Shown here piece by piece: positions 3,558 to 39,981 of a DNA stretch of 64,000 nt. Both the position numbers and the translations under genes were made by a program. The stretch is from the human T2T-CHM13v2.0 reference genome, Homo sapiens, in assembly GCF_009914755.1 (NCBI RefSeq), contig NC_060928.1. One strand, written 5' to 3'. The notes under the pieces were generated by a model. It was not told the origin of the DNA, searched no databases, and saw only the letters and a list, made by a program, of their open reading frames with translations. Each line of letters begins with the position of its first letter. Within the stretch, counting starts at the first letter, position 1.

Positions 3558-6089
3558 AGGTCATAAGTGGATTCAAATATTTTCTGATTGGCAATTGGTT
3601 GAAAGAGTTAAATTTTGTCTAAGGACTTGGAGTAGAAAGAAATGCTTGAGTAAGATAAGGGGGCTTGTGGAGACCGAGGTTCTTGCTGTGAGATGAAACC
3701 TAATAGGTAGCAGTCTTCAGAGATAATAGATAGCAAATATCTCCTTTTGGACATTAAAAGATATGAGACTCAATTTATCTCTCCTAGATCAGAGAAAGAA
3801 CTGGCTGCATTAATGGAGATTCTCTACTGATGCAAATTTTCCCCATAAAAGATTGCTTTGCAGGGCTACTTCAAAATATGTAAAAAATATATTTTAGGAT
3901 AAAATATTTTTATTTCCTTCAGGGTCTGCTATCTTTCATGTGATGCTATACCTGAGTCAGGTTAGAATTTGATATTGCCACAAAGAGTCTGTCAATCTTA
4001 TGATCTCTGTTTTAATGTTAATGCTGGTCAGTTGTGCCTAAATTCCCAAAGGGATGGGGTTTAATGAGGCACTTCTGACCTCCCTTCCCAACATGGCCAG
4101 GAATTTAGTTTTTCAGTTTTCTCTGGGATCCCCTAGGCCCACAGAGGATCTCTTTAGTGGGTTGGGGTGGCTTAAAATTTTATTTTTTGTTTTACAGATT
4201 ATAGGACATTTCCCTTTTTATATCCCTCACTGGTACATCAGTGGTTCTCCAGTATGGTAACAGTGGAATACAGCTAAAAGAGCAGCTGGAAGGTGTACAG
4301 ACTGTCTCCACGGAGGAATACTTAGGAAAGTCCAAAGTAATGATGAGAAACAAAAATGCAAAACAAACAAACCAACCCCCCCAAAAAAAATTCTAGAGGA
4401 ATTTAAAAGCCTATATACCCAACTTTCTGTTACCTGATATATCATGCCCTCCTACTTTCAACAAAAAAATTACAAGGCATGCCTACAGGCAAGAAAGAGC
4501 ACTATATGAAGAGATAAAACAAGCATAAGAACTCAGATATGACAAAGATATTGGAATTATGAGATAAGGAATTAAAAATAACTGATTATTATGTTAAAGA
4601 TTCTAATAGGAAAAGCAGACAATATGAAAGACTTGATGGTAAACATAAACATAGAGATGGAAACTCTAAGAAATATCTAAAAGGAAACACTAGAAACCAT
4701 AATACTATAACAGACTTGAAGATTACTTTTGATGGGCTCCAAGAGTAGACAGGACATAAGTCAGGACAAGTGATAAGCAAATCAGTGGACTTGAAGATAA
4801 ATCAATAGAAACTGCTAAAAACTGAAATTCAATGAAAAAAATAGAATACACAAAAACAGAACAAAGCATCCAAGCATATGGAAAAATTTCAAAAGTGTAG
4901 CATTTACATAATGGGAATATTATAAGGAAAGGAAAGAGAAAACAGGGCAGAAGGAGTATGTAAAGTAATAGTGGTTAAGAATTTTCCCAAATTTATGACA
5001 GACAACAAAATTCAGATTCAGGAAGCTCAGAGAATACAAAGCAAGGTAAATAACAAAACAAACTAGGACTAGGCATATCATATTCAAACTGCAGATAACC
5101 AAAGACAAAAGAAGAATATTGAAATAAACTAGAGCAGAACATTCCCATAGAGAGCTAAGAATAAGAACTGTAATAAACTTCCAGTCAGAAACCATGCAAA
5201 CAATAACAAAGGGAAGTGACATAATTAAAAGAAAGAAGGACAGAACACAACCACCTAGAATCCAATATGCAGCGGCATCACCCTTCACATGTGAAGGAGA
5301 AATAAAGACTTTCTGAGACAAAAACTGGTGGAAGTCATTACCAGCAGACTTGCACTGTGAGAAATGTTAAAGATAGCTCTTTAGGGAGAATAAAAATAAA
5401 ACTTGAATCTACATAAAGAAGGAAGAACATCAAAGAAAGAATATGTGAAGGTAAATAAAACCTTTCATTTCTGATCTGGAAGATAACTGATACATAATGA
5501 TAAAGGGGTTAATTCTAAGAAGATAGAGCAATCCTAAGTTTGTATACACCTAGTACATAGAGACAAGCAATGCGAGGCAAAATTGGTAGATGTGAAAGGA
5601 GAAACCGACAAACTGCCATAATATTTGGAGACTTTAACACCCCTTATTAAGTAGTTAATATATCAAGCAGGCAGAAAATCAGTAAGGATATAAATGACCT
5701 GAAGAGCACTATCAATCAATATGATCTAATTGACATAGAATATGTCCAACAACAGCAAAAATCACGTTCTTTTGAAGCTCACAGGGAACATTCATCAAGA
5801 TAGTGTACATTCTGGCCCTTATAACACATCTCAACACAACCTCAAGTTTAAAAGAATAACAATTATACAATAAGATTTTAGAGCACTCAAAATCAATATT
5901 GGAATTAAACTTGAAGTCAACAACAGAAAGATAGCTGGAAAATTCCCAAATATTTTGTAATGAAACAACACACTTCTAAATACTACATGAGTTAAGGAAG
6001 TCACAAGTGAAATTTAAACATATTTTAGACTAAATGAAAATAAAAATACAACTTACCAAAATTTGCAGGATACGGACAAAGCAGTGTCA

Positions 6090-7162: not shown

Positions 7163-7339
7163 ATCTTTAGAAATGACAATAAAAAGTCAAATTTTAGTAT
7201 TAAACTCTTGAATGTCATGAGTTTACTGTATTGCATTAGTCTTTAATCCAATCTTGGTCATTTTAAAAACAGTAAAAACCTTGTATGATTTATAGTTTCC
7301 AAGTTAGTTTACAGTTTCAAAGTTCAAAATGGCTAAACT

Positions 7340-7530
7340 TTACTGAACTCTTACCATGGGCCAGGCACAGTTTTAAATATTTTGTGCCTATTTAAGACCC
7401 ACAACATTTTAGGAGATAGTGATCCTATTATTTCTGTTATACAAGGGAAGAAAATCAGGCACAGAAATATTAAATGACTTGCCCAAAGTCACACAACTAG
7501 TAAATGGGGTAGTCAGGATTTGAACCCAGC
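7340..7530 (-). mobile_element. MIR
   Basis: Core TTGCCCAAAGTCACACAACTAGTAAATGG...GATTTGAACCCAG. Confidence 0.7.
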
Positions 7531-10500
7531 TGGCACCAAGTTCATGTCTTTAGTTCCCACCCCCTTCAATGCTTTCCCATATATCATTCCATTTAACATC
7601 ACTTCGCTCATTCATTTAAAAAATATTAATAGAACACAATAATGTTCCATGTATAGAGCCAGGCACTGGAGAATATGCAAAAAAGTACAAGACATAGGGC
7701 ATGGTTTGCCATCCAGAAAAGGAAAGAATTTAAAAAGTGTTCCTCAGGCCATTCTAGCATGGCCTAGAGAAATACATCTTCCCTCCCCAAGTCTTTATTT
7801 AATCTAGAAGAGAGAAGAGTCTTTTGGGAAACTCCACACACCAGAATTCTCCAGGTTATCAGTAGGATCCCAGGTACAACAGACCTCCATAGATGGGCTT
7901 GCTTTCTTGTGCCTTTGATCTATATTTCCCTTGAAAAAAAAATTCTTGATTGTTTTCTTTCATATGGTTTTAAAAACAAGGAGATATCCCTTTTTCCTCA
8001 ACAGCATTATATTCTGTTGTCATATCACAAAGAAACTGTGCCCCTACATCCTCAGTTTTCTATAGAACCAGACACTACAGCTTTTCAATTGGTTTACTCA
8101 ATATTCTGGCCTTTTCTGTTCATCCTCTGGCTAGGAAACATTCTGGGTTGCTTGCCTTTCATGTATCCACTCAGCCCAGTATCCACTCAGCCCCAACTAG
8201 TGATGCTCACTTCAAGCTAATACTGCCCAACCATCCTCCCATTTGGGTGACCCTCCTCTCTATCTGATAGACGATTTAGGTTAGGAAAAGATGTTATTTT
8301 TGGCTCTGCAGGCCTCTGAGAGTGGAGGCCAATTGTCAGCCTCAAATAGTCTACTTGTTTAGACTTCTCAGCCAGCTCCTGTAATTCTCATGCAAATGAT
8401 CCTCAAATCCTGGACCTAATGCTTCCTCACCAGAGCATGGGTTACTGTGAGATGAAGTGTCTGCATGTGTTCTCTACTTTTGGAGTCCCGTTTAAGCTAA
8501 GGAGATGTGACTTTCTTGGAGGAGGGGGTTTATAAAGTTGGCCTGTGATATGGCTTTAAACTAAGAGGCTTATTAACCCAACGTAGTTTGATGCTGTGTA
8601 GTCAAAAGGTAAAGCCAAACTGGGATCAAGCAGAAACTAAGCTAAAAGTGAGTTGAAGAGTGCTGACAGTCTGAAGGGTGAGACAGTCTCCAAAGGAGGA
8701 GGAAGAGCCACAAAGGGATTGGTGACTAGAGGACTGAATTGATGGAGAACAGTGTGTAATATTCAGACCATGATCAGTGAGAAAAGCTGGTGCTTGGGCA
8801 GTAGTTAGGAGGTCAACTCTATGGCAGAAGTAGACCAGTCTTGCGATGTAAATGGAACACCAGAAAGGCCAGGGATTTGAAATCTAATAATCCTAGTTTC
8901 AAATCCCAGCTTCATCACTGCCTGATATTGAATATGTTATTTAACTTTCAGGTTTTCATTAATAAATTGGAGATTATTATACCAAGTCCATGAATCGTTT
9001 TGAAGATTAAAAGAAGGAACATGTCTAATGTACCTAGCTTAATTTTTCACACAATCTGAACATTCAATAAATACAAATTTTCTCTTTCTTTGCTTCCTAG
9101 TCTTCTACCCCTCCCCTAACTGCACCATAATCTTGATTCATCTTTATAAACTGGTTTTGTTTACCTGTCTCAAACTGAGCGATTTTAAGAAGTTCTGATA
9201 ACCGTTTTCAATTCTTTCTAATTAGTTTAAAACTGTGGAATGCTATCTTTGTGCTTGAAATATCACACATTTCTCTAGGAACAATATGGCCCATTCTGAC
9301 GAACTGATAAAGTCTAATTTTCCTTTCGACTAAAGTGAAATGTTCTTTATCCAAAAAGCCATGAAGAGTAAAGCAATAAATAAAGTATCTTGGCCTTAAG
9401 AAGGTAAAATTTATTCCCTTACCAGAAACAAAACAATGAGCACTCAAAACTTAGCATTAAATTCTGAGCAAATTCTGAGCAAAACTTAACATTGAATTCA
9501 TGATTAAAATACAAGCAAATCATTTAAACAAATTCACACAAGCCTGTAATATTAATTCCAAAATTAATGATGCTATATTTAAAAAATGTAAGGGAAATTG
9601 CATTATTAGAAACTCTAAGGGCCCAGACAAGTTTTACTGTACTTGTACCTAGAGTATTCCTTGAAATGGAAAAATCATATGAGAAATCTTTTTTTACAGT
9701 AATTTTAGATGTAGTAGTTTTTGTCATACAGGATTTAACCTATAAGTTAGGGAAATTATAATGTACAGAGGTAACTGTCAAACTTTTTAAACCAATAATA
9801 TGTTTCTTTAAATGAAATGTTATGTGGAAGACCTATATACATAATAAAAAATAGCAATAGTGAGAGTGAGAACCTGGAATTTATCTTCTTCAGAAACACA
9901 TATTCTCTCTCCAATGTCTGACCCCTACAGAGACTCTTAGCCCCCAGCTCCCTCAGAAAGCTCCTAAGGCTTCAGGATCCACAAGATAGTCACGGTTCTA
10001 AAGCACCATCAAACCACTTTTTTTCTAAATTGCTTATTGTAACCAATTAATGTGTCATTAAATAAATTTTAATAAATCTCAGCTATATTTTAGCTTTCAA
10101 ATGAAATTTAAAAAGATGAAAGTGGCTTCTCAACAATTTCTTTTTAAATATTTATTTCAGATATAAATGAATATATATTCCTGGGTATGCTGCATCATAA
10201 TTTAAAAAGGATTTTAGGTCTAGAAGACCACATACTACTTCATGAGGTTGAGAAAACCTCATGAAAATGGTAACATTTTGGTAAGGTGATTTTTAAATGA
10301 CAAACTTCCAACTCTAATAAAATATAATGAAAGCGTATTTAGAAGAAAAGTTATAACTAAACACACGTATAGACCAATCAATGAAGAAGTTGGAAGCAAG
10401 AATTTTGTTAGCAATAAAAAAAGTAGCTGGATATTTTTAGCAGTTTATTTATTTATAACATTATAAGTTCCATGCTATTTTTGTATCTATCTAAAAAGTG

Positions 10501-30356: not shown

Positions 30357-30725
<369 letters not shown>

Positions 30726-31432: not shown

Positions 31433-32042
31433 CTCTCTGAAAAGTAGGTTGCTACTAGAAGGTGCTGACAGTCTTTTCAGTATCTGATGTGATAATGAGT
31501 TTTAGAGTTATTTTGACCAAGGTGAAGCAAGAGCTTATCAAATAGTGGAATTAAATTTAAAACAAAAAGACATCCAAAAACAGTGAAGGCATATTCACTC
31601 CTTAAAAGCACACAAGATCCAACAAGCCTATTACGTTATAGACAAATTCTAAAATCACAGACTGCCATGGAAGATGGTAGAAAATGAACAGTCTGAGTAG
31701 GTTGGCATGTGACCACAGCAAAAGTGTGAACAAAGAGGATTTTGCTATGTGTTTGGGCTGGACAAATGCTATGATTCTGCACAAGTTTGCTTTTCTGGTC
31801 TAAATAGCCTAAAAGGTTAAACTGGGAAAATGAGATGCATTTCTTTTATTCTGTAATCTATCTGATTTTAATTTGGATCATTTTTATTTTCTTGATTGTT
31901 TTCCAGAATAGTCATTTTACCCTAAGATTTGCAATTATTTTGCTGACTTGGCTTGGTCATCCAGTCACCAAATCCTAGCCTCCTCTGTACTGGCCTCCTT
32001 CTGGATGAGCCCTCAGTGCAATCCTTAGGAAGCAAGGTAAAT

Positions 32043-32208
32043 CCAGGCACAATGGCTCAAGCCTGTAATCCTAGCATTTTTGGAGGCCAACATGGGAGGA
32101 TCATTGAGCCCAGGGATTCGAGGCTGCAGTGAGCAGTGATTGCACCACTGCACTCCAGTCTGGGCAAATGAGTAAGAGCCTCGAAAAACAAAATAAATAT
32201 AAATAAAA
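32043..32208 (+). mobile_element. Alu monomer (FRAM/FLAM-like)
   Basis: Single Alu arm with A-rich tail. Confidence 0.75.
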
Positions 32209-32946
32209 ATGAAGCAAGGTCAAAATAAACCGTATGCAATAGGAAGTACATTTTCTACATCTGGCATTTTGTCTGACTGTTGGGCAACCACTTCTTAGTG
32301 CTCCAGGGCCCACGACATTTACTGCTATTGCCATTCCTATGATGGCACTCAACCTCTCCCACGCGCGGTCCCCAATATTGTGTAAGGGTGTAGGCTCGGT
32401 CCTGACTCACAGGGAAGAGGCGATTTGTATCCTCTGAGTCACTGGCACCACTTCCTGCTGGCACATCTGAGATTTCACTGAAACATAATCTGAAAAATGA
32501 AGGCAGAGAGATATATAGGTGAGGTTCACATTCCTAAAACCCATTTGGAAATTTGATAGAAACAATGACCTCTGAATGCATTTCCATTTTTGCAGCTGTA
32601 TTGTAAAAGAAGCGCCAACTGCCAATTTTGAGTTTACAGATCATCTGTGTTATATCACCTGGCAAGAAATTCCTCTGTATCTTAGTTACCAATGCCACCA
32701 GACAAGAAATGCCACCAGATCTGTTTTTTTGACATAGATACTATCTAAAATATTTAGTATCGTAGTGAATTATTTGCTTAGGAAGAATCTACTGTCAAGA
32801 ATGAAAAAGCCAAATATAGTATTTGAGGTCCAATCATAGAGAAATTATGTTCAAACAACACTAAGGTCATGAAAAGCCTGACATTAAGGAAATATATGCA
32901 TGCTTTAGCATTTATTCCCTCCCTGTATGACTCATTAAAGTAATGA

Positions 32947-33273
<327 letters not shown>

Positions 33274-35222
33274 TGACCAGCGATTCTTAAGGTTAACAGG
33301 ATAGTGGATGTAATATTTCTCTGGAGATAGATTTTTTATTCATTGGATCGCATTCACTCTTCTACCCTAGTTTGCAAGTGTTTGGGAGCAGACGCATATT
33401 GCAGGAACATTTGAGAACCACTATTTTAAAGCAATAGTGCTGTGCAGATGGACATGACTTAGAATTAATTTTGCTGTTTTCTTGGCCACATCCATCCATG
33501 ATGGAATTGCAGTTATACACTTTAATTTGAAAGGAACATTTAAAATTATATACGATTCCACCTGTAAAATATCCTGCTGTAGGATTAATGCAGCAAGTCT
33601 CACAGAAACTATCCTGAGCGATGGACTGTGTCCAAGGGAGCGTCACGAGTAAGGAAAGTCCAGTCTTTGTGGAGGCACACCCTGGGCTGAACATTCTTTA
33701 ATTAACAAAGACAAACATTTCACCTGTGGCCTGAACAACTGGAACAAAGTTTCCAACGGTGGAAAAACTAACAACTACTAAAAACCTTTAAAAAAGAAGA
33801 CTAACAGCAACACTCCAAAGTAAGTTGGATTCTATAATAGTTGCAGGTTGCAATTGGAGGCAATTCCAAGCAGGAAAGGTTAGGCTTTAGTTTATGCAAA
33901 GGATAGAGAAACTAGCTTCAAATGTGCATTTTTTTCCCCCTGGCTAGCATTTTCCTGGAGGGAGAATTGGTAATGTCTCCTCCAAAGCTTTCCTCAGTTG
34001 AAGAAATATGTAGGAATAGGAATGTCAAGGATGTAAGCACGTGCAACTAAAACTCCAATTTGTACCGAGGAAACTGTATTAGTTAAAGGATTTCATTCTT
34101 CAGTAGTGAAAGTATGGTGAAATTATTATTGGGATATAAAACAAAATTGACTTGAATGAGAATCTAGCTTATCCTCCATAAAAAGCTTAGTGAAATAGTT
34201 TTCAACTCTGTTCAACTGACAATGAAATCTAGGCTTTAGCTATTTCTTTGTCATTCAACAAAAATATATTTTTTGTAGTTCCACAAGAGCAATTGAAGCA
34301 GCATTTATATTGTAGAAAAAGCATGGAGTGGGGAGGGGATAATTCTGAACTTTAAAGACAACAGAATTTTCAAATTGTTGAAGAACAGGAGACTTGATTT
34401 CAAAAGATAAATTTGTAACTCTTCTCTTCTGTGGTCACAAGTGATCTTAGACAAGACATTTAATTTAAATACACTGAGGGTATTTGAGACTAATAACTAC
34501 TTCACAGAATTAAGTGTGAAATTTGATATATGAAGTTATACATTATGATGCTGATGCCGATGTGTAATTTACTTTTCAGAACCCAAAAATATACAATCGG
34601 CTTAACAGATACAAGCCTTCTCTAACTGAGAAAAAATAAAATTCTTGTATTACACGAATTAAATCTTTCTTTACAGTACCAAATTACAGAGATAGACAAA
34701 CTTGTTATAAACCAGAAGAGGGCACTGTCCACATACACTGCTAAAACCAGAGGCTAGAAGTTGAGAGTCAAGGAACATTTATGGGCTGTGACAGCCATTT
34801 CAGAAAAAAAAAAAAAAAAACATTAGTTTATTTCACTGTATTCTCCCCAAAAATCTATAAGATAGGAAAAATTAACACCCAGAAAAGTAAATTAATTTTT
34901 TTTCAAGATCACGTAGCTCAAGTTTTCCTCACAAGACTGCCTTTCCACCATAATTTGTGGCCTCTATGTTGGGTTAAATACTCTACTTCAATTACAGCTA
35001 TCATAATTTGTTCTCTGTGATGTCCATTATACTCTAGTATTATTGCCTATTTCCAAATTCTATAAAGTGGCCCATTTAACAATATGTATCCTTGGGAAAA
35101 GTTATTTAAACTCTTTATGCCTTAGTTTTCTCTAATGGGGATAATAATAGTATCTTCCTCAAATTGGCCCTGAGAGGACTAAATAATATAATACAGATAA
35201 GGTGAATAGGACCATACCTGGT

Positions 35223-35609
35223 TGTATTAGTTTGTTTTCACACTATTATAAAGGACTTCCCTGAGACTGGGTAATTTATAAAGGAAAGAACTTTAATTGA
35301 CTCACAGTTCTATATGGCTGGGGAAGTCTCAGGAAACTTATCATGGCCGAAGGCGAAGGGGAAGCAAGCCCCTTTTTCACAAGGTGGCAGGAGAGAGAGG
35401 CGGGAAGGAGGAACTTCCAAACACTTATAAAACCATCAGATCTCATGAGAACTCACTCACTATCCTGAGAACAGCATGCAGGAAACCACCCCCATTGATT
35501 CAATCACCTCCCTCCTTGGACACATGGGGATTACGGGTCCCTCTCTCAATACATGGGGATTGCAATTCCAGATGAGATGTGGGTGGGGACACAGAGCCAA
35601 ACTATATCA
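35223..35609 (-). mobile_element. THE1/MST-type MaLR solo LTR inserted in a MIR
   Basis: TG...CA ends; perfect 5-bp TSD CTGGT (35218-35222, 35610-35614); MIR sequence on both sides. Confidence 0.88.
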
Positions 35610-35635
35610 CTGGTACATAGTACATGTTCGAGAGA

Positions 35636-36202
35636 TGGATCGTCCTCTGTCTGAACTGTGAAAGAAATGGAAAGTTGAATATATTTTGTTGCCTTTATGG
35701 AGGCATTAATCATCCTTTCATAACAGTTACCACTTACTTAGCTACTTCAACGAAACAGGTTGATTCAAACTCTTCCTGTGCTTACAGAAACTGGATTCTC
35801 AGTGTGGTTCATCTGGCATGCCTATTCCTTCTCATATTAGATAGGATATATTCTGATTTTACCTAGATTACATTTACCTAGCTGCCTATCAGTCAAGGAG
35901 AATTTTCAGGAGTAGGAAGTCATTCTAGTTATCACGCACCCTAGGCCAATAAGCACCGGAATCCAAACGAAAATGTCCAACCGACTAAACAAAATCACAT
36001 AGGAGGTATTTATTCTCAAAAGACAACCTTTAGGGTGTAGAAAAAGCAAGCTTAACACACATGTCATTATCCCCCACGGTAGGTATTATTCATTTCTTCA
36101 AACAAAATATGTCTAATTTTTTTCAAATCTCAGTTCTGAAATTCGTTATTCCCCAAAGCAATTGCAAGCTGAAGCCATTAATTAATTTAGTGGAGCTTAA
36201 TT
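35636..36202 (-). repeat. Inverted copy of 38225-38679 (intron 2 end + first 20 nt of exon 3), interrupted by a direct copy of 36449-36570
   Basis: Manual alignment: 35636-35734 vs revcomp 38581-38679 = 84/99 ungapped; 35883-35994 vs 38439-38554; 36012-36202 vs 38225-38416. Confidence 0.93.
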
Positions 36203-37092
36203 GCTGCTACTACTACTACTACCACCACCATTAGTATTTACTATATAACAGTTACTTAAATAAATTGGAAAGAGTGTTTGAAGTGCAAATACCTAAAGCT
36301 TAAACAGAAGCAGCTAAAGCTCTTAACTAAACATCTGTGAAATTACAAGGGTTCTTCTTATGATGATTCCTACACAATTCAGAAAGTACTTGAGTCATTC
36401 TTGATATCTATGTTCCAAAATTTTATCTTTTCACTGAATACACATGATGAAACAGCTGATTCAGACTCTTCCTATGCTGATAGAAACTGGATTCTAGGGC
36501 TCAGTATGGTTCATTTGGGATGCCTGTTCCTCCTCATATTAGACAAGATATATTCTGATTTTACCTAGCTTTCACTGTATTAATTAAAATCTATACTCAT
36601 GTGTAATGCAATGCAAAGAGTAACTTAGGTACATAAATCAATAATGAATGTTTCTTAGGTTGAGTTTCTTGTTGTTACTGTAAGTGGAAACCGATTTTTT
36701 ATTTAGAGTCTTTTTTTGTGATGGGGTCTGATTAGGAGCATTTCTCTGAACACATGATGGAATAAAACAGTGGAAATTCTCCAACTGATGTGCGTCTTAA
36801 GAAATCAAACTTCAAAATCAAATCTTTGAAAATGTTACTGTGAAATATTTAGAGCAGGTCAAATCTGTAACCGTGAATGTAATGCCAAGGCTTTTATCCT
36901 TCCACAGAATAGCTGGGGGAGTTTGTATTTTCTGTTACATGCCTGTTTCCATGAATTATTTTGTTTTATGGTTTTGATGGACCAAATCTGTGAAACAAAA
37001 CAACTCTATAAGTACTGCAGTTATGTAGAAATTTGATCAAGATTTCTTTCCTTAACACATTAGTTATATATTCGATTTTTCTTCATAAATAG

Positions 37093-37179
37093 GTTTCCAT
37101 CTTCTACAGGCAGTCCTCAGTACAACTGTGATTCCATCATGTATCCCAGGAGAGTCCAGTGATAACTGCACAGCTTTAG
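37093..37179 (+). CDS. EREG: Epiregulin exon 2 (GFHLLQAVLSTTVIPSCIPGESSDNCTAL)
   Basis: AG at 37091-37092, GTAAGC donor at 37180; 87 nt, phase 1-1, in frame with exon 1; contains NCT sequon (N47). Confidence 0.96.
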
Positions 37180-38659
37180 GTAAGCCCAAGTTTGTCAATG
37201 TGGCATCAAGAGACTACATATTTTTAAACAGAAATATAAACTCAAAGACTATAAGTATGTGATAATTTTTAAAAAAAGGGTAAGAATAGCTGCTATATTA
37301 CTTTTTAAATCACCATATAAACTAATGTTCTGAAAAAATTATATAAAGGAATAACTGGTAGGAGAGGGACCGGATAAATTATATACACAGATTTGATTGT
37401 GAAGAGATAGGGAACAACAACAACAAAAAATTGCATTCCCTTTGGCCGTCTCCTGGCACTTTACTGCGAAACATCCTCAGAGACCACACTGACTGGATTC
37501 CAGGCAAAACAGCAAAACAGGAAAACTTTGTACAGAATAGGTTCTCTATCTCTCTCTTTCTACCCCTCTCTCTCTCTTTGTAAGAAGAACAAATGATAGT
37601 CGTTTCTTTCTAGGCACAGTGTTCATTCAGAAAACATTTATCGAGTATGTAGTATGCACCAAACGCTGTGCTAAGGCATACAGATACAAAGATAAGTAAT
37701 ACAGTTTTTTCCCCTCGAGGACTGTGGACTCCAGATATGGTCCAAGGGGGATCAGCTTTATCTTCATTCTGAGTTATTGAATCAAGATAACTGAGTTATT
37801 TTGAGGAAGCAGGATATTTTCCATAACAACTTTATCTTTTGTCCCTCACCATCAGGTTCTCTGGAGGTTTGGTCAGCCTCCTCCGCAGGTTTGGTCAGCC
37901 TCCTCCGCATCATCTTTTTTTTTTTTCCTTCTTTGGTTATTTGGGCAAGAGTATTACAATCAAATTGCTATTTTAAAAGTAATTTTATAAGCATCTTTCA
38001 CATTTTGGTATCTAAAGCTTTCTAAAGTGAATTTTACACAAAGGCTCCTATTTTCATTGCTGTTATTTGTCTACCAGAGGCCTTTCTCACTCAGGGTTTG
38101 TCTAGTTTGGATTCAGGCCTCATTATCAGAGATATTGGGAGACTGGTTAATTTCATTAATGGTAACCTCAGCAACTTGAAAACATACACCAAAGCCAGCC
38201 TTACTGATTAAAAATCCACTGTAGAATTAAGCTCCTTTGAATTAATTAATGGTATGAGCTTGCAACTGCTTTGGGGAGTAATAGATTTCAGAAATGTTTT
38301 GGGACTTGAGAAAAATTAGACAAATTTTGCTTGAAGAAATAACACCCACTTGGAGGATAATGACACCTGTGTGTTAAATTTGCCTTCTCTACCCTTACAG
38401 GTTGTCTTTTGAGAATGAAATCCTTTCATGTTATCTTCTTTTGTTTAGTCTGTTGGACATTTTCCTTTGGATTCAAGTGTTTATTGATTGGTCTAGGGGG
38501 TGTGACAACTAGAGTGACTTCCTACTTCTCAAAATTCTCCTTGACTGATTGGCATCTGACTTGTTGTGTAGAAGTAGTTCAGTGGTTACTGTTATGAAAG
38601 AGTGAGAAATTCTTCCATGAAGGCTGCAGAATATATTCAACTTTCCACTTCTTTTACAG

Positions 38660-38783
38660 TTCAGACAGAAGACAATCCACGTGTGGCTCAAGTGTCAATA
38701 ACAAAGTGTAGCTCTGACATGAATGGCTATTGTTTGCATGGACAGTGCATCTATCTGGTGGACATGAGTCAAAACTACTGCAG
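38660..38783 (+). CDS. EREG: Epiregulin exon 3 (VQTEDNPRVAQVSITKCSSDMNGYCLHGQCIYLVDMSQNYCR; first four Cys of the EGF domain)
   Basis: Polypyrimidine tract + CAG ending 38659, GTAAT donor at 38784; 124 nt; EGF cysteine spacing. Confidence 0.97.
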
Positions 38784-38814
38784 GTAATATGTCAGAAATA
38801 AACAAACACAGTTT

Positions 38815-39057
38815 GTAAAATTTTGTTTTATAGATTTAGGGGTACAAGTGCAGATTTGCTAGTGGATATATTCAGTAGTGGTGAAGTCTGAGCTTTTAGA
38901 GTACCTACCCCTCAAATAGTGTGCATGGAACCCATTAGGTAATTTTTCATCCCTTAACCCCCCCAAAACTCTTCTACCTTTTGAAGTCTCCAGAGTCTAT
39001 TACTCCACTCTCTATGACAATGTGTACACATTATTTAGCTCCCACTTGTGAGAACAT
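38815..39057 (-). mobile_element. L1MA-type 3'UTR fragment just after the exon 3 donor
   Basis: GGGGTACAAGTGCAGATT...TTTAGCTCCCACTT..GAGAACATG L1 3' end motifs. Confidence 0.8.
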
Positions 39058-39340
39058 GTGATAAACAAATGCAGTTTTACTCTTTGTATTTCTATTTTTA
39101 TAATTTGAAATTACCCTATATTTCCATGGGCTGTTAAATGCAGTATATATATTATTAGAAACTTTTCTGAGTTTTTAAAAATTAGGTAGTAAATAGTAGC
39201 TTTTAAATTGCACACATATGTCAGAGGTGCAGAGCAGGGAGGACTTCTGATGCTTCTCACACTTGCCAAGATGGTGTCTCTCTGCTTTGGATCTTTTCCT
39301 TCAATTTCTATATCAGGTATTGTTTTAAGAATTGATTCCA

Positions 39341-39981
<641 letters not shown>

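What the first reader, a model, noticed from the sequence alone, without database searches (positions are those of the whole stretch)
35636..38679. Intron-1 inverted copy complementary to the EREG exon-3 3' splice site, bracketing in-frame-skippable exon 2
Seen: three collinear blocks in intron 1 match the reverse complement of intron 2's last ~435 nt plus the first 20 nt of exon 3. These are 35636-35734/38581-38679 (84/99 identical, no gaps), 35883-35994/38439-38554 (13 mismatches + one 4-nt gap) and 36012-36202/38225-38416 (~80% by eye). In RNA, 6 of the 15 mismatches in the first block are G-U wobbles, so 90/99 positions can pair, covering the branch-point region, polypyrimidine tract and AG of exon 3. 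I do not recognise it as a transposon, and it includes coding sequence, so it looks like a local duplication. Exon 2 (87 nt, phase 1-1) sits in the ~2-kb loop. Established: long intronic duplexes can mask splice sites, loop out exons and drive back-splicing. Inference: this could be a built-in cis-antisense splicing switch. Possible outcomes are in-frame exon-2 skipping (losing the end of the signal peptide and the N47 propeptide), exon-3 skipping (frameshift) or intron-2 detention. I know of no description of it, but cannot check.
Basis: partly seen in the sequence, partly recalled or inferred. Interest (0 to 1): 0.8.

Follow-up and report, generated by a model that had tools for sequence, protein, structure and literature searches.

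The report
Old inverted duplication inside EREG introns
Part of the human epiregulin gene was once copied backwards into an earlier intron, so the unspliced RNA could fold back over one splice site, but nothing here shows that the cell uses this.

Summary
Window 35636-36202 (EREG intron 1) is an inverted copy of 38225-38679, which is the last 435 nt of intron 2 plus the first 20 nt of exon 3. Identity is 83-85%.

It is not a transposon. A search of the whole assembly finds only these two copies. The flanking stretch 35300-35612, used as a control, gave 7019 first-look candidates.

The intron-1 copy is a mosaic. It is interrupted by a direct copy of 36449-36574, which points to a complex local rearrangement.

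The RNA duplex is very favourable in silico. Block 1 forms 90 bp at -131 kcal/mol, and 398 arm-to-arm pairs appear in the 3.1-kb minimum-energy fold.

Nothing indicates selection for pairing:
- G-U-preserving versus A-C-creating transitions are 27 vs 17 (p=0.17).
- The arms carry 8 indel events.
- Their divergence matches neutral yardsticks in the same window.

RefSeq lists one EREG transcript, and I found no circEREG or EREG isoform literature. A published catalogue figure shows a complementary pair in EREG whose position I could not read.

The most likely reading is a decaying relic with incidental duplex potential. The "switch" remains untested.

The parts
35636..35760 (+). Arm A, segment 1. 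Inverted copy of 38559-38679, which is the first 20 nt of exon 3, the acceptor AG, the polypyrimidine tract and the last ~100 nt of intron 2.
   Evidence: 100/121 identical (82.6%), one 4-nt gap, K2P 0.20. The gap-free core 35636-35734 is 84/99 identical.
35752..35872 (+). Direct (same-orientation) copy of 36449-36574 that interrupts arm A and is absent from arm B. It would form a ~119-nt bulge in the predicted duplex.
   Evidence: 106/120 identical (88%), K2P 0.13. The genome search finds only these two copies. The two alignments overlap by 9 nt at 35752-35760.
35880..36202 (+). Arm A, segment 3. Inverted copy of 38225-38557 (intron 2).
   Evidence: 269/317 identical (84.9%), 7 gap events, K2P 0.17.
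36203..36230 (+). Breakpoint on the right of arm A, occupied by a short CTA/CCA trinucleotide run.
   Evidence: homology to arm B stops at 36202/38225, and the sequence read there is the trinucleotide run.
36449..36574 (+). Partner (probable donor) of the direct copy inserted in arm A.
37093..37179 (+). EREG exon 2 (87 nt, phase 1-1), lying in the ~2-kb loop between the arms.
   Evidence: Hub annotation. One search confirms the length, and that skipping is in frame and removes residues 23-51.
38225..38679 (+). Arm B, the source copy. It is the last 435 nt of intron 2, the acceptor AG (38658-38659) and the first 20 nt of exon 3.
   Evidence: The exon continues normally beyond 38679, so this arm is the original.
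35223..35609 (-). Solo LTR-type dispersed repeat with the 5-bp direct repeat CTGGT at 35218-35222 and 35610-35614. It is a neighbour of arm A and not part of the duplication.
   Evidence: 7019 first-look candidates, and 39 of 39 scored non-self matches at 81-87% identity; the repeat starts near 35223; termini and flanking repeats read directly; no homology to exon 3 continues on the far side.
33000..33290 (+). Intron-1 Alu-type repeat, inverted relative to two copies in intron 3 (39339-39613 and 39671-39934). It is a competing and stronger inverted pair flanking exons 2-3.
   Evidence: 89-91% and 78-80% identity; cofold -543 kcal/mol with 269 intermolecular bp.

Best explanation
This is a single-locus, non-transposon inverted duplication.

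Shown: a ~455-nt piece spanning the end of EREG intron 2 and the first 20 nt of exon 3 was copied in reverse orientation into intron 1, 2.0-2.9 kb upstream. Either in the same event or later, a ~120-nt direct copy of nearby intron-1 sequence was inserted into it.

Inferred: this mosaic is the signature of replication or repair template switching. It is not retrotransposition.

Inferred: the copy has since decayed at about the neutral rate. Arm divergence is 17-20%. With a recalled primate rate this gives roughly 45-60 million years, so I predict the copy is primate-specific.

Shown in silico only: because both arms lie in one pre-mRNA, they can form a long imperfect duplex of about 400 bp in two blocks, with helices of 23 bp or less. 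This duplex buries the exon-3 acceptor and loops out exon 2.

Inferred: I judge this an incidental by-product. Like the many inverted Alu pairs in human introns, it is probably tolerated and resolved by the normal RNA-handling machinery. At most it has a small effect on splicing efficiency, editing or circle formation, and it is not an evolved switch.
For: Existence and extent of the duplication.

Not a repeat family:
- Arm B matches only itself and arm A in the whole assembly (2 candidates, both scored).
- 36420-36620 matches only itself and the insert.
- The same tool on the adjacent 35300-35612 gave 7019 candidates, and all 40 scored ones matched.
- The hub's list of masked stretches does not include either arm.

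Mosaic structure.

The left boundary is a true breakpoint. It was not created by the LTR insertion. With the LTR computationally removed, the far flank shows no homology to the rest of exon 3 (score 12 vs shuffle mean 10.9; 70 of 300 shuffles reach it).

Neutral-looking decay:
- K2P is 0.20 and 0.17 for the inverted arms and 0.13 for the direct duplicate, which cannot pair.
- The local LTR is 81-87% identical to other family copies.
- Alu pairs in the gene are 78-91% identical.
- Wobble-preserving vs A-C-creating transitions are 27 vs 17, binomial p=0.17.
- The arms carry 8 gap events.
- The longest Watson-Crick helix is 18-19 bp.

Duplex potential:
- Cofold energies are -131, -150 and -385 kcal/mol, against -41, -51 and -132 for shuffled partners.
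- The MFE of 35600-38720 contains 398 arm A-arm B pairs, 89 of them in block 1.

No sign of use:
- RefSeq lists one transcript (hub table).
- 0 papers were found for circEREG, circ-EREG, EREG isoform or epiregulin splice variant.
- No Rfam family matches 35000-39200.
- No analogous repeat exists in AREG or EPGN.
Against: - The configuration is unusual. Passages read in PMC8052449 say complementary regions are depleted at actively used splice sites and avoid branch points. A long duplex over a constitutive acceptor might therefore be expected to be either harmful or used.
- The duplex is thermodynamically dominant in the fold of the whole 3.1-kb region.
- The same paper's Supplementary Fig. S6C is captioned as a structural alignment for a complementary pair in Epiregulin. 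It sits in a figure that the main text cites, naming only the QRICH2 and MRPL42 genes, for pairs strongly supported by covariation. If that pair lies inside these arms, it would count against pure neutrality. Neither the coordinates nor the letters were readable.
- The wobble-vs-A-C count leans the 'right' way (27 vs 17), although the difference is not significant.
- I could not examine other species, RNA-seq junctions, editing databases or proximity-ligation data.
Confidence: 0.6

Rival explanations
1. One reading: an evolved cis-antisense splicing switch. Pairing of arm A with the exon-3 acceptor region tunes EREG output through exon-2 skipping, exon-3 skipping or intron-2 detention. A helicase, ADAR or transcription speed releases it.
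For: - The duplex covers the AG, the polypyrimidine tract and the usual branch-point zone and is very stable.
- Exon 2 lies in the loop and can be skipped in frame.
- Looped-out exons are on average less included, and splice sites inside duplexes are obstructed (passages of PMC8052449).
- A complementary pair in EREG appears in that paper's Supplementary Fig. S6C, at a position unknown to me.
Against: - There is no excess of pairing-preserving substitutions.
- Indels and a 119-nt insertion break the duplex.
- Divergence equals the neutral yardsticks.
- RefSeq lists one transcript.
- No EREG isoform or circle is in the searched literature.
- The paralogues lack the structure.
Confidence: 0.1
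2. An incidental but measurable RNA-level by-product. The arms act like an inverted Alu pair. They would be an ADAR editing substrate, with arm A serving as an editing-complementary sequence for the first 20 nt of exon 3 and for the acceptor. They might also be a weak promoter of exon-2 back-splicing. No selection is involved.
For: - The double-stranded potential is long, with helices up to 22-23 bp when G-U is counted.
- The arms flank exon 2 at 890 and 1045 nt.
- PMC8052449 passages report strong enrichment of editing sites in very stable complementary pairs.
- The abstract listing of PMC6724681 says editing-competent stems often form between exons and introns.
Against: - An 87-nt single-exon circle would be very small (recalled: single-exon circles are usually longer).
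- A stronger inverted Alu pair spans exons 2-3 and competes.
- No EREG editing or circle report was found. One search gave 0 papers, and the 'EREG' hits were an unrelated stemness index.
Confidence: 0.2
3. Both arms are independent insertions of one transposable-element family.
For: None found here. Very old families below about 70% identity could escape the word-based first look of the genome search (caveat).
Against: - There are only two copies genome-wide, against thousands of candidates for the control repeat.
- The homology runs collinearly across the intron 2/exon 3 boundary into coding sequence.
- 83-85% mutual identity would require a young, abundant family.
Confidence: 0.02
4. A DNA-level duplicate of a regulatory element. 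The end of intron 2 carries an enhancer or silencer, and the intron-1 copy is retained for transcriptional reasons. The RNA complementarity is a side effect.
For: - Arm A keeps 8 CpGs (observed/expected 0.42) while arm B has none. This could reflect different germline methylation.
- The PMC8052449 discussion notes that oppositely oriented binding sites can mimic complementary pairs.
Against: - Only 3 of the 8 CpGs align with TG or CA in arm B, so the asymmetry is weak evidence.
- The RefSeq enhancer in intron 1 lies at 31828-33023, not here (hub table).
- Divergence looks neutral.
Confidence: 0.05

Closest known systems
Inverted intronic repeat pairs, mostly Alu, that loop out exons and promote exon skipping or exon circularization (recalled: Jeck 2013, Zhang 2014, Liang & Wilusz 2014, Lev-Maor 2008; none read here)
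   Same: Two reverse-complementary stretches sit in the introns on either side of an exon. They form a long imperfect duplex with the exon in the loop. An Alu pair of exactly this kind also exists in EREG.
   Different: The arms are not a dispersed repeat. They are a one-off local duplication. One arm is not purely intronic, because it contains the acceptor and 20 nt of exon 3.
[quoted passage not shown]
   Same: Both are long-range complementarity (<10 kb) within a gene. That paper associates it with lower inclusion of looped-out exons and with obstruction of splice sites. Its Supplementary Fig. S6C shows a pair in Epiregulin.
   Different: PCCRs are short and defined by cross-species conservation. 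They are reported as depleted at active splice sites and as avoiding branch points. Here ~430 nt of decayed duplicate overlaps a constitutive acceptor. Whether the catalogued EREG pair lies in these arms is unknown, because the large tables could not be read.
Template-switch mutations that create reverse-complement copies and RNA hairpins (PMC5453318, PMC10710096, bioRxiv 10.1101/2021.04.15.439925; search listing and abstract starts only)
   Same: A local reverse-complement copy gives instant complementarity without stepwise compensatory evolution. A second templated piece sits inside the copy. The alignments overlap by 9 nt at one junction.
   Different: The scale differs. As I recall, the described events are tens of bases over short distances. 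This copy is 455 nt, placed 2-2.9 kb away. After ~17% divergence, microhomology at the junctions cannot be proven.
Exon-intron editing duplexes (editing complementary sequences of ADAR targets; abstract start of PMC6724681, the rest recalled)
   Same: Exon sequence is paired with an intronic complement in the unspliced transcript.
   Different: The complement lies two introns' worth upstream, in intron 1. No editing evidence for EREG was found.

Membership tests
Transposon-derived inverted repeat pair (Alu-like) | Both arms belong to a dispersed, multi-copy repeat family. | tested here: not met
   arm B matches only itself and arm A in the 3.1-Gb assembly. Control: the adjacent repeat gave 7019 candidates. 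The hub's masked list omits the arms.
Intronic complementary sequences flanking an exon | Reverse-complementary stretches lie in the upstream and downstream introns of the same exon. | tested here: met
   arm A lies 890 nt upstream and arm B 1045 nt downstream of exon 2.
Intronic complementary sequences flanking an exon | The predicted duplex is stable relative to local folding and to shuffled controls. | tested here: met
   -131, -150 and -385 kcal/mol against shuffled -41, -51 and -132; 398 arm-arm pairs in the 3.1-kb MFE.
Intronic complementary sequences flanking an exon | An observed back-spliced circle or skipping of the looped exon. | not testable with these tools
   No RNA-seq or circle database is available here. 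Literature searches found none for EREG. RefSeq lists one transcript.
Conserved complementary region pair (PCCR) | Both arms lie in cross-species conserved intronic elements and show compensatory substitutions. | not testable with these tools
   No other vertebrate genome is available here. The position of the catalogue's EREG pair could not be read.
Template-switch or replication-based inverted duplication | A reverse-complement copy of nearby unique sequence that is single-locus. | tested here: met
Template-switch or replication-based inverted duplication | Additional templated pieces or microhomology at the junctions. | tested here: inconclusive
   A second templated piece (a direct copy of 36449-36574) is present. 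There is a 9-nt alignment overlap at 35752-35760, but ~17% divergence prevents proof of microhomology. A two-step origin is equally possible.
Regulatory splice-site-masking RNA structure | Pairing is maintained by selection, seen as an excess of pairing-preserving changes or as covariation. | tested here: not met
   Within human only: wobble 27 vs A-C 17, p=0.17. There are 8 gap events. Arm divergence is not lower than that of the non-pairing direct duplicate. Cross-species covariation was not testable.
Regulatory splice-site-masking RNA structure | The splicing outcome depends on the structure. | not testable with these tools
   This needs a minigene, CRISPR or antisense-oligonucleotide experiment.

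The most novel reading that the evidence does not exclude
A probably primate-specific template-switch duplication gave EREG a ready-made antisense clamp over its exon-3 acceptor. The clamp is long enough to recruit ADAR or to require helicase release. It would set how fast or how completely intron 2 is removed, so this EGFR-ligand gene would have a lineage-specific post-transcriptional brake. It could also edit the acceptor AG or the propeptide codons at the start of exon 3.
Probability: 0.08. Interest if true: 0.7.

Novelty: new member of a known kind. Interest (0 to 1): 0.35.

Why it matters
EREG is an EGFR ligand, and the papers listed use its expression level to predict response to anti-EGFR therapy in colorectal cancer. 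A duplex over a constitutive acceptor runs against the genome-wide trend reported in PMC8052449. That makes this locus a clean natural test of whether such a duplex matters in vivo: it is not a repeat family, it occurs once in the genome, and antisense oligonucleotides could target it uniquely. It also illustrates how one rearrangement can create ~400 bp of RNA complementarity in a single step. If it has no effect, it is simply one more decaying intragenic duplicate.

Tried and rejected
- Transposon origin is rejected: two copies genome-wide, against thousands of candidates for the control repeat.
- I tested whether the duplication once included more of exon 3 and was split by the LTR insertion. 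It did not. With the LTR removed computationally, the far flank shows no homology (70 of 300 shuffles reach the observed score).
- No known RNA family matches 35000-39200 on either strand.
- The architecture is not shared with the paralogues. The AREG locus (L006) and EPGN locus (L007) show no inverted pair around their exons and no match to the EREG arms.
- Literature on an EREG circle, isoform, exon skipping or intron retention:
  - One search found 0 papers.
  - None of the titles and abstract starts listed concerns EREG splicing.
  - One search listed 12 of 30 papers, none containing EREG.
- EREG RNA editing: the single paper with hits (PMC8990463) uses 'EREG' for a stemness index and not for the gene.
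- Locating the published EREG complementary pair failed:
  - The caption is found in supplementary file 1 of PMC8052449, but panels B and C gave no letters or coordinates.
  - One species list (human to panda) cannot be assigned to panel B or C.
  - Three large tables are unreadable here.
  - The preprint text adds nothing.
  - The PHRIC paper's held supplement has no EREG entry.
- The CpG asymmetry between the arms was followed only as far as and is not decisive.
Full report
**1. Observation**

The inverted-repeat scan of 35000-39500 returns as its top pairs 35636-35734/38581-38679 (99 nt, 85%), 35880-35950/38487-38557, 36131-36202/38225-38296 and several collinear pieces between them. BLAST of intron 1 against intron 2-exon 3 joins these into two inverted alignments:
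- 35636-35760 vs 38559-38679, E 3.9e-25.
- 35880-36202 vs 38225-38557, E 2.7e-73.

- Block 1: 84/99 identical, no gap, with 6 of 15 mismatches giving G-U, so 90/99 positions can pair.
- Block 2: 13 mismatches plus one 4-nt gap.
- Block 3: 158 matches, 27 mismatches and 5 gap events.

The paired part of arm B includes the acceptor AG (38658-38659), the pyrimidine tract and exon-3 bases 38660-38679.

**2. What it is**

Arm B searched against the whole assembly (3.1 Gb) gives two first-look candidates, itself and arm A. As a control for the tool's ability to see repeat families, the stretch just left of arm A (35300-35612) gave 7019 candidates, and all 40 scored ones matched, with the 39 non-self ones at 81-87% identity. 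The arms are therefore a one-off local duplication and not a transposon. Because arm B runs on into the functional exon, it is the source and arm A is the copy.

Arm A is a mosaic. The ~119 nt between its two inverted segments (35752-35872) is a direct copy of 36449-36574, which lies 250 nt beyond arm A. It is 106/120 identical and again occurs only twice in the genome. The inverted homology resumes in arm B within two bases of where it left off (38559 then 38557). There are two possible origins:
- one event with serial template switches;
- an inverted duplication followed by a small templated insertion.

The alignments overlap by 9 nt at 35752-35760. After this much divergence, microhomology can be neither proven nor excluded.

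The right breakpoint (36202/38225) is followed by a CTA/CCA trinucleotide run.

The left breakpoint lies between 35615 and 35636. The dispersed repeat to its left is a solo LTR-type element at 35223-35609, bounded by the direct repeat CTGGT on both sides. From recall only, its terminal sequence looks like the THE1/MST group of MaLR LTRs. With that element removed in silico, the far flank has no similarity to the rest of exon 3. The duplication therefore captured only about 20 nt of the exon.

**3. Age and mode of evolution (inference)**

K2P distances are 0.20 (segment 1), 0.17 (segment 3) and 0.13 (direct duplicate). Yardsticks from the same window are similar:
- The local LTR is 81-87% identical to its relatives.
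- Alu copies in the gene are 78-91% identical to one another.

This gives about 8.5-10% change per arm. With a recalled primate-lineage rate of roughly 0.17-0.2% per million years, the event dates to about 45-60 million years ago. That predicts presence in anthropoid primates and absence outside primates. I could not check this, because no other mammalian genome is available here.

**4. Selection for pairing**

Half of all transitions between the arms keep a pair as G-U and half create an A-C mismatch, so neutrality predicts equal numbers. Observed counts are 6 vs 4 in block 1 and 27 vs 17 over both segments (p=0.17). Other observations point the same way:
- The arms carry 8 gap events plus the 119-nt insert.
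- The longest uninterrupted helix is 18-19 bp Watson-Crick, or 22-23 bp when G-U is counted.
- The inverted arms are no better conserved than the direct duplicate, which cannot pair.

The slightly higher identity next to the exon (53/60) is what purifying selection on the real acceptor alone would give. None of this shows selection for the duplex. It does not exclude such selection, because only one genome was available.

**5. Duplex potential**

| Pair | Cofold energy (kcal/mol) | Intermolecular bp | Shuffled partner (kcal/mol) |
|---|---|---|---|
| Block 1 | -131 | 90 | -41 |
| Segment 1 | -150 | 109 | -51 |
| Segment 3 | -385 | 289 | -132 |

The minimum-energy fold of the whole 35600-38720 transcript segment contains 398 arm A-arm B pairs, 89 of them in block 1. 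If both arms coexist in the pre-mRNA, pairing is strongly favoured.

A still stronger inverted Alu pair lies in intron 1 (33000-33290, +) and intron 3 (39339-39613, -). It brackets exons 2-3 at -543 kcal/mol and would compete.

**6. Evidence of use**

- RefSeq lists one EREG transcript (hub table).
- Full-text searches found no circEREG, EREG isoform or splice-variant paper (0 papers). The listings contain nothing relevant.
- No Rfam family matches the region.
- AREG and EPGN, which are neighbouring paralogues, have no comparable inverted pair.

Passages read in PMC8052449 state four things:
- complementary regions are depleted at active splice sites and avoid branch points;
- looped-out exons are less included;
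- splice sites inside duplexes are obstructed;
- very stable pairs are strongly enriched in editing sites.

Against that background this locus is atypical, and that is the main reason it is worth a bench test.

The same paper's Supplementary Fig. S6C is captioned as a structural alignment of a complementary pair in Epiregulin. The text held gives no coordinates or letters for that panel. One species list (human to panda) cannot be assigned to panel B or C. The main text cites the figure only for QRICH2 and MRPL42, and the full tables were too large to read. A complementary pair in EREG is therefore already in print, but whether it is this one remains open.

**7. Mechanism and verdict**

What is shown:
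- a unique inverted duplicate that includes the exon-3 acceptor;
- its mosaic structure;
- strong predicted pairing.

What is inferred:
- an origin by template switching;
- a primate age;
- neutral decay.

The most likely reading (0.6) is a relic whose duplex is incidental and is handled like the many inverted Alu pairs in human introns.

A measurable but unselected RNA effect, such as editing, weak circularization or slower intron-2 removal, is plausible (0.2).

By kind, this is a new member of a known class, intronic complementary sequences. Its unusual features are its non-transposon origin and its overlap with a constitutive acceptor.

Noticed in passing
window 35223-35609 (- strand), flanks 35218-35222 and 35610-35614: A solo LTR-type dispersed repeat with TG...CA ends and an intact 5-bp direct repeat (CTGGT) on both sides. 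It has thousands of relatives in the genome at 81-87% identity. NCBI's mask (35347-35537) covers only part of it.
   Followed up: partly
window 30490-30725 and 33000-33290 (+) vs 39339-39613 and 39671-39934 (-): Inverted Alu-type repeats in intron 1 and intron 3 bracket EREG exons 2-3. The best pair is 89-91% identical with a predicted duplex of -543 kcal/mol, which is the classical geometry for exon circularization. No EREG circle was found in the searched literature.
   Followed up: partly
window 35636-36202 vs 38225-38679: The two copies differ in CpG content. Arm A has 8 CpGs (observed/expected 0.42) and arm B has none. Only 3 of the 8 align with TG or CA in arm B. This is unexplained; it could be chance or a difference in germline methylation.
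   Followed up: partly
window 36203-36230: A short CTA/CCA trinucleotide run sits exactly at the right breakpoint of the inverted copy.
   Followed up: no
L006 (AREG locus) 3731-3852: A 122-nt stretch matches its own reverse complement at 78% (E 7e-22), so it is a local palindrome in the AREG region. A smaller one lies at 964-1019.
   Followed up: no
L007 (EPGN locus) 1800-2104 and 7290-7595: A direct repeat pair of ~305 nt at 86% identity. It is probably a pair of common interspersed repeats, but this was not checked.
   Followed up: no
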